A program made the translations under genes and the position numbers. Shown here one piece after another: positions 90 to 258 of a stretch of 64,000 nucleotides of DNA. The notes below the pieces were generated by a model that was given only the letters and a program-made list of their open reading frames with translations, was not told where the DNA came from and ran no database searches. Source of the DNA: Escherichia coli (lineage in GTDB: Bacteria > Pseudomonadota > Gammaproteobacteria > Enterobacterales > Enterobacteriaceae). Location: the NCBI RefSeq assembly GCF_003334405.1, contig NZ_QOWM01000017.1; one strand, written 5' to 3'. Position 1 is the first letter of the stretch; each line of letters starts with the position of its first letter.

Positions 90-258
90 GTACTGAATTG
101 TGATGGTTTGGTCTCCTGCACCCTTTTTTAATTTATATTGTTTATGTGAATATTATGCCTATGTTTATTATTCATATATATTACGGATGAAAATTATTTG
201 ATTATTCATAATGTAAATATTTTATTGAATGATATATATCACAGATAATTTTTAATAT
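90..258 (+). promoter_or_regulatory. AT-rich upstream region of cas3 (putative cas3 promoter / nucleoid-protein-bound region)
   Basis: Strongly AT-rich tract (tttatattgtttatgtgaatattatgcctatgtttattattcatatatattacgg...) immediately 5' of the cas3 start at 259; several TATAAT-like hexamers. No specific promoter mapped. Confidence 0.4.

What the first reader, a model, noticed from the sequence alone, without database searches (positions are those of the whole stretch)
90..258. Strongly AT-rich block upstream of cas3
About 170 bp of highly AT-rich sequence precedes cas3. In E. coli K-12 the cas promoters are silenced by H-NS and relieved by LeuO. Given the shortened cas3-casA spacer, this region may be the principal promoter for the whole cas operon in this strain.
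Basis: partly seen in the sequence, partly recalled or inferred. Interest (0 to 1): 0.3.

Follow-up and report, generated by a model that had tools for sequence, protein, structure and literature searches.

The report
AT-rich leader region upstream of cas3
The AT-rich block is real: it is the conserved non-coding left end of the common (non-K-12) E. coli CRISPR-Cas gene cassette and most likely holds the cas3 promoter and leader, an ordinary feature found in about half of complete E. coli genomes.

Summary
Window 125-259 has the lowest GC of any 135-nt stretch in the 64 kb (14.8% against a mean of 53%). The boundaries need shifting. Positions 75-130 (48% GC) are the 3' tail of the neighbouring hok toxin mRNA. 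The AT-rich block runs from 131 to about 300, because cas3 most likely starts at GTG 301, not at the annotated ATG 259.

The block is the 'IG4' spacer that accompanies the cas-E1 gene variant. It occurs once, next to cas3, in 2,698 of 5,426 complete E. coli genomes. It is not homologous to K-12 (cas-E2), so the K-12 H-NS/LeuO facts are analogy only.

The distal half (131-196) varies between strains. The segment 232-300 is nearly invariant and carries -10-like hexamers, which fits a core promoter plus 5' UTR.

The 97-bp cas3-casA gap is the E1 norm, not a shortening in this strain. It has no AT-richness, no consensus promoter and no terminator. Relatives in other genera have a gap of only 10-11 nt. 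Co-transcription from this block is therefore plausible but unproven.

Interest is low.

The parts
1..74 (-). Left end of an IS186/IS421 (IS4-family) insertion sequence. The transposase ATG is at window 20 and reads leftward, away from cas3. The terminal inverted repeat starts at 53.
   Evidence: Annotated as an IS421-family transposase in matching genomes. A 27-nt inverted repeat matches the other IS end in L001. The same junction occurs in 333 of 5,426 genomes.
75..87 (.). Right-hand copy of the IS target-site duplication (GGGGTAAAACCC[C]), in a GGGG-N5-CCCC target.
   Evidence: Strain W5-6 has hok | GGGGTAAAACCC | IS | GGGGTAAAACCCC. The uninterrupted sequence is seen in L002.
75..130 (+). 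3' tail of the hok (hokX) toxin mRNA ('IG3'). It holds a GC hairpin, a fold-back element at 109-123 and a T6 run at 124-129. In this window the IS cuts it off from the hok ORF. It is not part of the AT-rich block.
   Evidence: GC is 48%. The tail is conserved in E. coli Nissle, which lacks cas genes; homology stops at window 130. In the fold of the intact hok transcript, the 5' end pairs with this 3' segment, z = -3.7.
131..196 (.). Distal, sequence-variable half of the AT-rich block (18% GC).
   Evidence: Two haplotypes differ here, with only 74-76% identity. Escherichia sp. L011 has a 39-nt deletion in this part.
197..300 (+). Proximal, conserved half of the AT-rich block (17% GC). Segment 232-300 is nearly invariant. 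Proposed to hold the cas3 core promoter and 5' UTR.
   Evidence: Positions 259-300 are 95-100% identical in loci whose cas3 coding sequence is only 90-95% identical.
230..241 (.). 12-bp perfect palindrome TGATATATATCA. The adjoining TCACAGA is retained even in E. albertii. A possible regulator site, untested.
244..258 (+). Two -10-like hexamers, GATAAT (244-249) and TAATAT (253-258; TAAAAT in the second haplotype). They predict a transcription start at about 256-266.
   Evidence: A position-weight-matrix scan I wrote gives scores of 6.3-8.2, which are not exceptional. The hexamers are conserved. The tool's stricter consensus scan finds no + strand site here.
268..292 (+). 9-bp hairpin (TATCCTTTA / TGAAGGATA) whose 3' arm holds the Shine-Dalgarno AGGA (287-290). 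A +1 T variant found in some genomes lies in its loop.
   Evidence: The degree of Shine-Dalgarno occlusion is not exceptional: 14th percentile of 28 control genes in the window.
301..2376 (+). cas3 of the cas-E1 variant, with probable start at GTG 301 (annotated and longest ORF starts at ATG 259). It carries a 582-bp in-frame deletion.
   Evidence: Homology to Cas3 of other genera begins at residue 15, which is GTG 301, and the aligned codon in those genera is GTG or TTG with a Shine-Dalgarno sequence upstream. The published cas3E1-R primer sequence (PMC3903273) matches window 341-360, read.
2246..2251 (+). Junction of the 582-bp in-frame deletion in cas3. It removes residues 665-858 of 899 (ATG-259 numbering): the end of the helicase C-terminal domain and most of the C-terminal region.
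   Evidence: Alignment to L001 and L002. Junction sequences. Pfam domains. The junction is found in 0 of 5,426 genomes.
2377..2473 (+). cas3-casA gap of 97 nt (47% GC), the standard length for cas-E1. Its last ~40 nt are invariant and include the casA Shine-Dalgarno GAGAGGA.
2474..4036 (+). casA (cse1), first of the tightly packed genes casA to cas2 (to 8235).

Best explanation
Window 131-300 is the 170-bp non-coding left end of the cas-E1 CRISPR-Cas cassette, the 'IG4' region of Almendros et al. 2014.

Shown:
- It starts exactly where homology with cas-less E. coli ends, directly after the terminator-like 3' end of the hok mRNA.
- It is present once, beside cas3, in about half of complete E. 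coli genomes.
- Its distal half is free to vary in sequence but stays AT-rich.
- Its proximal ~70 nt is nearly invariant.

Inferred:
- The invariant part is the cas3 core promoter, with -10-like hexamers at 244-249 and 253-258 and a start site at about 256-266.
- A ~40-nt 5' UTR follows, with a Shine-Dalgarno sequence at 287-290, and translation starts at GTG 301.
- The whole 15-18% GC tract is a likely binding platform for H-NS-type silencers, as at other horizontally acquired cas promoters.
- The 97-nt cas3-casA gap has no recognisable promoter or terminator, and sister systems have a 10-11-nt gap. Transcripts started here therefore probably continue into casA-cas2, so this would be a major, possibly the main, promoter of the cluster.

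In this strain an IS186/IS421 sits 56 bp upstream of the block, and cas3 carries a 582-bp in-frame deletion that most likely inactivates it. Interference is probably lost whatever the promoter does.
For: - Composition: lowest-GC segment of the 64 kb.
- Boundary: E. coli Nissle, which has no cas genes, matches up to window 130 and then diverges. The fold of the intact hok transcript closes on window 109-123 and is followed by a T6 run.
- Distribution: 2,698 of 5,426 genomes, one copy each, always under or next to cas3.
- The E1 identity and the IG3/IG4 scheme come from PMC3903273.
- Conservation: 259-300 is 95-100% identical where the cas3 coding sequence is 90-95% identical; 131-196 is only 74-76% identical, with a 39-nt deletion in one lineage.
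- Start codon: tblastn matches begin at residue 15. GTG or TTG with a GGAG-like Shine-Dalgarno sequence aligns in 8 of 12 relatives. A +1 T between ATG 259 and GTG 301 occurs in L007, L009 and L011, and the exact allele is in at least 58 genomes.
- AT-rich tracts of 20-29% GC lie upstream of cas3 in 8 of 12 relatives.
- Gap: 47% GC, no consensus promoter or terminator, fold z = -0.07.
- Relatives have a 10-11-nt gap with GGAGG inside the cas3 3' end.
Against: - No transcription, H-NS or reporter data exist for this variant in the literature I could search.
- The strict sigma-70 consensus scan finds no + strand site in the block.
- My matrix hits score 6-8, a range reached 96 times (score >= 7) on the + strand of the window.
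- The published H-NS 10-mer motif is not enriched over composition-matched shuffles: 4 hits against 6.1 expected.
- The last 40 nt of the cas3-casA gap are invariant and partly shared with Intestinirhabdus. The gap has gained about 86 nt relative to the Salmonella and Citrobacter type. Either fact could mark a separate casA promoter or regulatory site.
Confidence: 0.6

Rival explanations
1. The block drives cas3 only. casA-cas2 have their own promoter in the 97-nt gap or in the 3' end of cas3, as in K-12 (the promoter upstream of casA) and in S. Typhi, where cas3 and cse1-cas2 are separate units.
For: K-12 and S. Typhi both have separate cas3 and cse1-operon promoters (PMC10011333; PMC8039139). 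The Escherichia E1 gap is about 86 nt longer than the 10-11-nt gap of the sister systems. Its last 40 nt are invariant and a TTGATA -35-like hexamer at 2405-2410 is conserved.
Against: K-12 (E2) and S. Typhi (cas-STY, with cas3 on the complementary strand and a 357-nt gap; PMC7712790) are different cas variants. The E1 gap has 47% GC and no acceptable -10 at 15-19 nt from TTGATA. An 8-nt deletion in E. albertii and Escherichia sp. changes the spacing downstream of TTGATA. The consensus scan finds nothing in the gap or the full-length cas3 3' end.
Confidence: 0.35
2. The AT-richness is only a compositional relic of the edge of a horizontally acquired cassette, with no regulatory role beyond a weak incidental promoter.
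For: The block begins exactly at the cassette boundary. Its distal half is not constrained in sequence and is partly deleted in one lineage. There is no motif enrichment.
Against: Segment 232-300 is more conserved than the adjacent coding sequence. AT-rich tracts recur upstream of cas3 in eight relatives whose sequences have diverged. cas3 needs a promoter, and the hok terminator-like tail lies immediately upstream.
Confidence: 0.1
3. In this strain the IS186/IS421 element that ends 56 bp upstream changes cas expression, either by outward transcription or by separating the block from the flanking hok/cysH DNA, so the native promoter logic no longer applies.
For: The IS end lies at 74. The same junction occurs in 333 genomes.
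Against: The transposase gene reads away from cas3. The hok tail with its T-run (109-129) still lies between the IS and the block. No outward promoter is known or predicted here. The AT block itself is 100% identical to that of an IS-free strain, L002.
Confidence: 0.08
4. The block encodes a small peptide or a small RNA rather than a promoter or leader.
For: An 11-codon ORF lies at 155-190 (read). Minus-strand promoter-like hits exist.
Against: The mini-ORF has no start codon and no open frame in the second haplotype. There is no Rfam match at E <= 1. The leader region shows no significant fold.
Confidence: 0.03

Closest known systems
IG4 intergenic region of the cas-E1 CRISPR-I arrangement of E. 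coli (Almendros et al. 2014, mBio, PMC3903273)
   Same: It lies between the hok-sok/IG3 region and cas3 of the E1 variant. It is absent from cas-less strains, and IG3 is shared with them. IS186 sits at the IG2-IG3 boundary, as in that paper's arrangements with an IS186 insertion. The paper's cas3E1-R primer matches window 341-360.
   Different: That paper catalogues IG4 only as a conserved spacer linked to E1. It assigns no promoter, start site or regulator. The sub-structure (variable distal half, invariant proximal 70 nt) and the GTG-301 start are worked out here.
K-12 (cas-E2) promoters upstream of casA and cas3, silenced by H-NS and relieved by LeuO (Pul 2010 and Westra 2010, as summarised in PMC10011333; CRP at the K-12 cas3 promoter, PMC7019758)
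   Same: A type I-E system in E. coli at the same chromosomal site (iap-cysH), with AT-rich non-coding DNA next to cas genes. The expected logic, xenogeneic silencing of an acquired defence operon, is the same.
   Different: There is no sequence homology. The K-12 region upstream of cas3 has 44% GC and is unrelated. In K-12 the AT-rich element is the 414-bp cas3-casA spacer (29.5% GC); here that spacer is 97 bp at 47% GC, and the AT-rich element lies upstream of cas3.
cas-STM-type type I-E loci of Salmonella (Typhimurium, arizonae, diarizonae, bongori), Citrobacter, Klebsiella grimontii and Phytobacter
   Same: Cas3 is 67-72% identical. All eight genes point the same way. An AT-rich tract lies upstream of cas3, and a GTG or TTG start with a Shine-Dalgarno sequence aligns with window 301. 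PMC7712790 describes the cas-STM genes as contiguous.
   Different: These loci have a 10-11-nt cas3-casA gap with the casA ribosome-binding site inside cas3, against 97 nt in Escherichia E1. Their upstream AT-rich sequences cannot be aligned with the E. coli block.
S. Typhi (cas-STY) CRISPR-Cas transcription units (Medina-Aparicio 2011 and 2017, as summarised in PMC8039139)
   Same: cas3 has its own H-NS-silenced unit, and H-NS and LeuO control the locus.
   Different: In cas-STY, cas3 is on the complementary strand and is separated by 357 nt (PMC7712790). That is a different cas variant and architecture.

Membership tests
cas-E1 CRISPR-I locus / IG4 region (Almendros 2014) | cas3 is of the E1 variant (matches the variant-specific primer cas3E1-R; not alignable to K-12 cas3) | tested here: met
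   The reverse complement of the primer matches window 341-360. There is no blastn similarity to K-12 from cas3 to cas6e.
cas-E1 CRISPR-I locus / IG4 region (Almendros 2014) | IG3 is shared with cas-less strains; IG4 is present only together with cas-E1 | tested here: met
   E. coli Nissle matches window 75-130 only. The block 125-305 is found in 2,698 genomes, and cas3 is annotated under the match in every row listed.
cas-E1 CRISPR-I locus / IG4 region (Almendros 2014) | A hok-sok locus lies between cysH and IG3 | tested here: inconclusive
   The window begins inside the IS, so hok itself cannot be seen. Its 3' tail is present at 75-130. Strains with the same IS junction have hok directly beyond the IS.
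K-12-type cas regulatory region (cas3-casA spacer bound by H-NS and LeuO) | Sequence homology to the K-12 regulatory DNA | tested here: not met
   blastn with word size 7 finds no match in window 1-2500 to the K-12 cas3-upstream region or cas3-casA spacer.
K-12-type cas regulatory region (cas3-casA spacer bound by H-NS and LeuO) | A long AT-rich cas3-casA spacer that holds the promoter | tested here: not met
   97 nt at 47% GC, against 414 nt at 29.5% GC in K-12.
Sigma-70 promoter | -35 and -10 hexamers with 16-18-nt spacing | tested here: inconclusive
   The strict scan finds none on the + strand. The matrix scan gives several moderate candidates, as expected in AT-rich DNA. The -10-like hexamers at 244-258 are conserved.
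Sigma-70 promoter | An experimentally mapped transcription start | not testable with these tools
   No transcript data are available, and no paper on E1 start sites was found.
H-NS-silenced (xenogeneic) region | AT content well above the genome average over 100 bp or more | tested here: met
   17.6% GC over 170 bp, against 53% for the window.
H-NS-silenced (xenogeneic) region | High-affinity H-NS motif (TCGATAAATT-like) | tested here: not met
   4 hits with 3 or fewer mismatches, against 6.1 +/- 2.5 in shuffles of the same region. The consensus sequence was taken from memory.
H-NS-silenced (xenogeneic) region | H-NS occupancy, and derepression in hns mutants | not testable with these tools
   This needs ChIP and expression data from a strain carrying cas-E1.
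IS186/IS421 (IS4 family) | Terminal inverted repeats, a transposase gene, and a 10-13-bp duplication of a GGGG-N-CCCC target | tested here: met
   A 27-nt inverted repeat and the transposase start. A 12-bp duplication, GGGGTAAAACCC, in W5-6. The target preference is from my own knowledge and from PMC3903273.
hok/sok type I toxin-antitoxin mRNA 3' end | The 3' fold-back element pairs with the mRNA 5' end | tested here: met
   The minimum-free-energy and centroid folds of the intact L002 transcript pair the 5' GGGUGC..GAGGCU with the 3' GGUCUC..GCACCC (window 109-123), z = -3.72.

The most novel reading that the evidence does not exclude
In the majority (cas-E1) E. coli CRISPR-Cas system, all eight cas genes form one transcription unit controlled from this single 170-bp AT-rich leader. 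Cas3 synthesis is additionally limited by a GTG start and a hairpin that covers the ribosome-binding site. If so, the K-12 regulatory model (a separate LeuO-responsive promoter upstream of casA) would not describe most E. coli, and the cas3 start codon would be mis-set by 14 codons in thousands of annotated genomes.
Probability: 0.2. Interest if true: 0.4.

Novelty: new member of a known kind. Interest (0 to 1): 0.2.

Why it matters
Almost everything known about E. coli CRISPR-Cas regulation comes from K-12, which carries the minority cas-E2 variant. This block is the likely control region of the variant found in about half of complete E. coli genomes, including O157:H7, and it has apparently never been characterised. 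Mapping its promoter would show whether natural E. coli CRISPR-Cas is silenced in the same way as in K-12. For this particular window the practical message is modest. The feature is ordinary and widespread, and the strain's cas3 is most likely inactivated by a deletion.

Tried and rejected
- Rfam search of 1-2700 at E <= 1: no match.
- Strict sigma-70 and terminator scans of 1-2700 and of the full-length cas3 region in L001: nothing on the + strand in the block or the gap.
- My own promoter matrix: many moderate hits, not discriminating.
- H-NS 10-mer motif: not enriched.
- Alignment to K-12 to transfer the known promoters upstream of cas3 and casA: no homology.
- Mini-ORF at 155-190: not conserved.
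- RNA fold of the gap (z = -0.07) and of the leader (z = +0.17): not significant.
- A hairpin covering the Shine-Dalgarno sequence as a special control element: similar stems appear in E. albertii, C. youngae and K. indica. The occlusion is only at the 14th percentile of 28 control genes in the window, so I kept it as a weak lead only.
- Literature searches for transcription or H-NS data on E1-type strains (O157, Typhimurium-type Salmonella): nothing usable. One search call failed on a format error.
- CRP-like reading of AATGA-N6-TCACA at 228-243: judged by eye against a remembered consensus only, and the left half is not conserved. Not claimed.

Full report

Yes. In 150-nt steps the GC content falls to 18-22% around positions 100-300, and then rises to 43-55% inside cas3.

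Across the whole 64-kb window, 125-259 is the lowest-GC 135-nt stretch: 14.8% against a mean of 53.1% (sd 5.9%). The next-lowest non-overlapping stretch has 25.2%. The lowest-GC 169-nt stretch is 129-297, at 17.8%.

The boundaries need correcting. Positions 75-130 have 48% GC and belong to another element (section 2). The AT-rich tract runs on to about 300; 131-300 has 17.6% GC.

**2. What lies around the block?**

*Window 1-74 is the end of an IS186/IS421 (IS4-family) element.*
- Matching genomes annotate an IS421-family transposase there.
- The transposase ATG is at window 20 on the minus strand, so the gene reads away from cas3.
- A 27-nt terminal inverted repeat matches the other IS end in strain ECCHD184.
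- Strain W5-6 shows the simple insertion: cysH, hok, IS, then cas3, with a 12-bp target duplication GGGGTAAAACCC.
- The identical junction is present in 333 of 5,426 complete E. coli genomes.
- Almendros et al. 2014 (PMC3903273) had already reported IS186 insertions at this 'IG2-IG3 boundary'.

*Window 75-130 is the 3' tail of the hok (hokX) toxin mRNA.*
- In an IS-free strain (L002) it follows the hok stop codon directly.
- It is retained in E. coli Nissle 1917, which has no cas genes. There, homology stops at window 130 and iap follows.
- When the intact L002 transcript is folded, its 5' end pairs with the segment that equals window 109-123, followed by a run of six U residues. The fold has z = -3.7.
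- By established knowledge of hok/sok systems, this is the classic closure of a hok mRNA, in which a 3' fold-back element pairs with the 5' end.

The AT-rich block proper therefore starts at 131. That is exactly the left edge of the DNA that is present only when cas genes are present.

**3. Which cas system is this?**

It is not the K-12 type. With blastn at word size 7, K-12 matches the window only from cas1 onward (about 70% identity) and in the CRISPR repeats. Nothing from cas3 to cas6e aligns, and neither does the region upstream of cas3.

The variant-specific primer cas3E1-R of Almendros et al. matches window 341-360. The locus is therefore their 'cas-E1' variant, the ancestral and majority form. 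K-12 carries 'cas-E2', found in a minority of strains.

In that paper's scheme, IG3 is shared with cas-less strains and IG4 is found only with E1. This fits window 75-130 and 131-300 respectively.

The block 125-305 is found in 2,698 of 5,426 complete genomes. It occurs once per genome, on the chromosome, next to cas3. It comes in two main haplotypes: about 1,000 genomes at 95% identity or more, and 1,664 genomes at 80-90%.

The K-12 region upstream of cas3 has 44% GC and is unrelated. In K-12 the AT-rich element is instead the 414-bp cas3-casA spacer, at 29.5% GC.

**4. The 'shortened spacer' premise is wrong.**

A 97-nt cas3-casA gap is the E1 norm. It is present in six E. coli E1 loci examined: L001, L002, L004, L006, L007 and L008. 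E. albertii and an Escherichia sp. have the same gap with an 8-nt deletion.

What is specific to this strain is a 582-bp in-frame deletion inside cas3.
- Window 2251/2252 joins L001 6251 to L001 6834, with only a few bases of microhomology at the junction.
- It removes residues 665-858 of 899, that is, the end of the helicase C-terminal domain (Pfam PF22590, residues 566-672) and most of the C-terminal region.
- None of the 5,426 genomes has this junction.
- Cas3 is therefore most likely non-functional here, unless the deletion is an assembly error.

**5. Internal anatomy of the block.**

I aligned eight Escherichia E1 loci and E. albertii. Identities are to the window; the E. albertii locus (L012) is much more divergent upstream of cas3 and is not included in these ranges.

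| Segment | Identity to the window | Notes |
|---|---|---|
| 131-196 | 74-76% in the O157-type haplotype | An Escherichia sp. has lost 39 nt here |
| 197-258 | 85-98% | |
| 259-300 | 95-100% | |
| cas3 coding, 301-1200 | 90-95% in several of the same loci | |

The stretch 232-300 is thus under tighter constraint than the protein-coding sequence next to it. It contains:
- a perfect 12-bp palindrome, TGATATATATCA, at 230-241;
- two -10-like hexamers, GATAAT (244-249) and TAATAT (253-258; TAAAAT in the other haplotype);
- a 9-bp hairpin at 268-292, whose 3' arm contains AGGA (287-290), 10 nt before GTG 301.

**6. The cas3 start codon.**

The longest ORF, and the RefSeq annotation, start at ATG 259. 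Four observations point to GTG 301 instead.
- tblastn matches to relatives in seven other genera begin at residue 15 (or 17), and residue 15 is GTG 301.
- The aligned codon is GTG in E. albertii, Intestinirhabdus, C. youngae, S. diarizonae, C. sedlakii and a Citrobacter metagenome-assembled genome. It is TTG in K. indica and Phytobacter. Each has a GGAG- or GGGA-like motif 7-12 nt upstream.
- ATG 259 has no such motif before it.
- A +1 T between the two candidate starts, in the hairpin loop, occurs in L007, L009 and Escherichia sp. L011. The exact allele is in at least 58 genomes, where cas3 is then labelled 'frameshifted'.

I conclude, by inference, that 259-300 is 5' UTR. The predicted start sites at about 256-266 are consistent with this.

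**7. Is it a promoter, and for what?**

Evidence in favour of a promoter is positional and comparative.
- It is the only non-coding DNA between a terminator-like RNA end and cas3.
- Its proximal part is strongly conserved.
- AT-rich tracts of 20-29% GC recur upstream of cas3 in 8 of 12 relatives, although the sequences themselves cannot be aligned.

Evidence that is weak or negative:
- The strict consensus scan finds no + strand promoter in the block.
- My matrix scores (6-8) are common across the window.
- The 10-mer H-NS motif is not enriched: 4 hits against 6.1 expected.
- There is no Rfam family match.

For read-through into casA:
- The gap has 47% GC, no consensus promoter, no terminator and no significant fold (z = -0.07).
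- From casA to cas2 the genes overlap or lie about 10 nt apart.
- In the sister 'cas-STM' type loci (S. diarizonae, Citrobacter, K. grimontii, Phytobacter) the cas3-casA gap is 10-11 nt, with GGAGG inside the cas3 3' end. That is a classic operon junction. PMC7712790 describes the cas-STM genes as contiguous.

Against an exclusive single promoter:
- The Escherichia gap has about 86 extra nucleotides.
- Its last 40 nt are invariant and are partly shared with Intestinirhabdus.
- Both experimentally studied systems, K-12 and S. Typhi, have a separate cse1 promoter. Both are different cas variants, however.

I put the block being the cas3 promoter and leader at roughly 0.75, H-NS occupancy at roughly 0.6, and it being the main promoter of all eight genes at roughly 0.4-0.5.

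**8. Comparison with what is known, and novelty.**

The DNA itself is already catalogued as IG4 and is very common. The kind of element, an AT-rich and probably H-NS-silenced promoter region of an acquired cas operon, is well known from K-12 and S. Typhi.

What does not appear in the literature I could search is any functional study of the E1 version. I therefore class it as a new, uncharacterised member of a known kind, of low interest.

It also overlooks the IS, the hok tail and the cas3 deletion.

**9. Limits.**

- All functional statements are inferences from sequence and comparison.
- The H-NS consensus and the promoter matrices came from memory.
- The conservation comparison uses about ten related loci, which are not independent samples.
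- Nothing upstream of the IS can be seen in the window.

Noticed in passing
window 1-87: An IS186/IS421 element ends at 74, with its target duplication at 75-87. It cuts the hok toxin ORF off from the 3' fold-back element of its mRNA (109-123), so the hok mRNA can no longer close on itself in this lineage. The same junction is in 333 of 5,426 genomes.
   Followed up: partly
window 2246-2251 (cas3): A 582-bp in-frame deletion removes Cas3 residues 665-858. No complete E. coli genome in the collection has this junction. It could be a genuine strain-specific loss or an assembly error.
   Followed up: yes
window 259-303: cas3 is probably annotated 14 codons too long in RefSeq (ATG 259 instead of GTG 301). 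A +1 T allele between the two starts causes 'frameshifted' or pseudogene calls in some genomes that may in fact have an intact cas3.
   Followed up: partly
L001 (E. coli ECCHD184) 2680-2760: In the closest genome, the far side of the same IS421 copy abuts a CRISPR repeat and iap instead of hok. This suggests an IS-mediated inversion or rearrangement of the cas-CRISPR segment in that strain.
   Followed up: no
L009 (E. coli isolate 68) 3586-4050: This E1 strain has a 465-nt cas3-casA gap that contains a reverse-oriented CRISPR-repeat-like sequence, and the 5' end of its casA is replaced.
   Followed up: no
window 228-243: AATGA-TATATA-TCACA resembles a CRP half-site pair and overlaps the palindrome TGATATATATCA. 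TCACAGA is kept even in E. albertii. This was judged by eye against a remembered consensus only.
   Followed up: no
window 8236-8330: The CRISPR leader after cas2 is the third most AT-rich stretch of the window (about 26% GC). The cas-E1 cassette is therefore bracketed by two AT-rich non-coding ends, while its genes have about 50-52% GC.
   Followed up: no
window 61201-61335, 54624-54758, 25602-25736: These are other low-GC stretches (25-30% GC) elsewhere in the window. I did not examine them.
   Followed up: no
record NZ_CM135829.1 (hit H46): A genome labelled 'DH5alpha' carries the E1-type block at 100% identity, although DH5alpha is a K-12 (E2) derivative by common knowledge. The record is probably mislabelled.
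   Followed up: no
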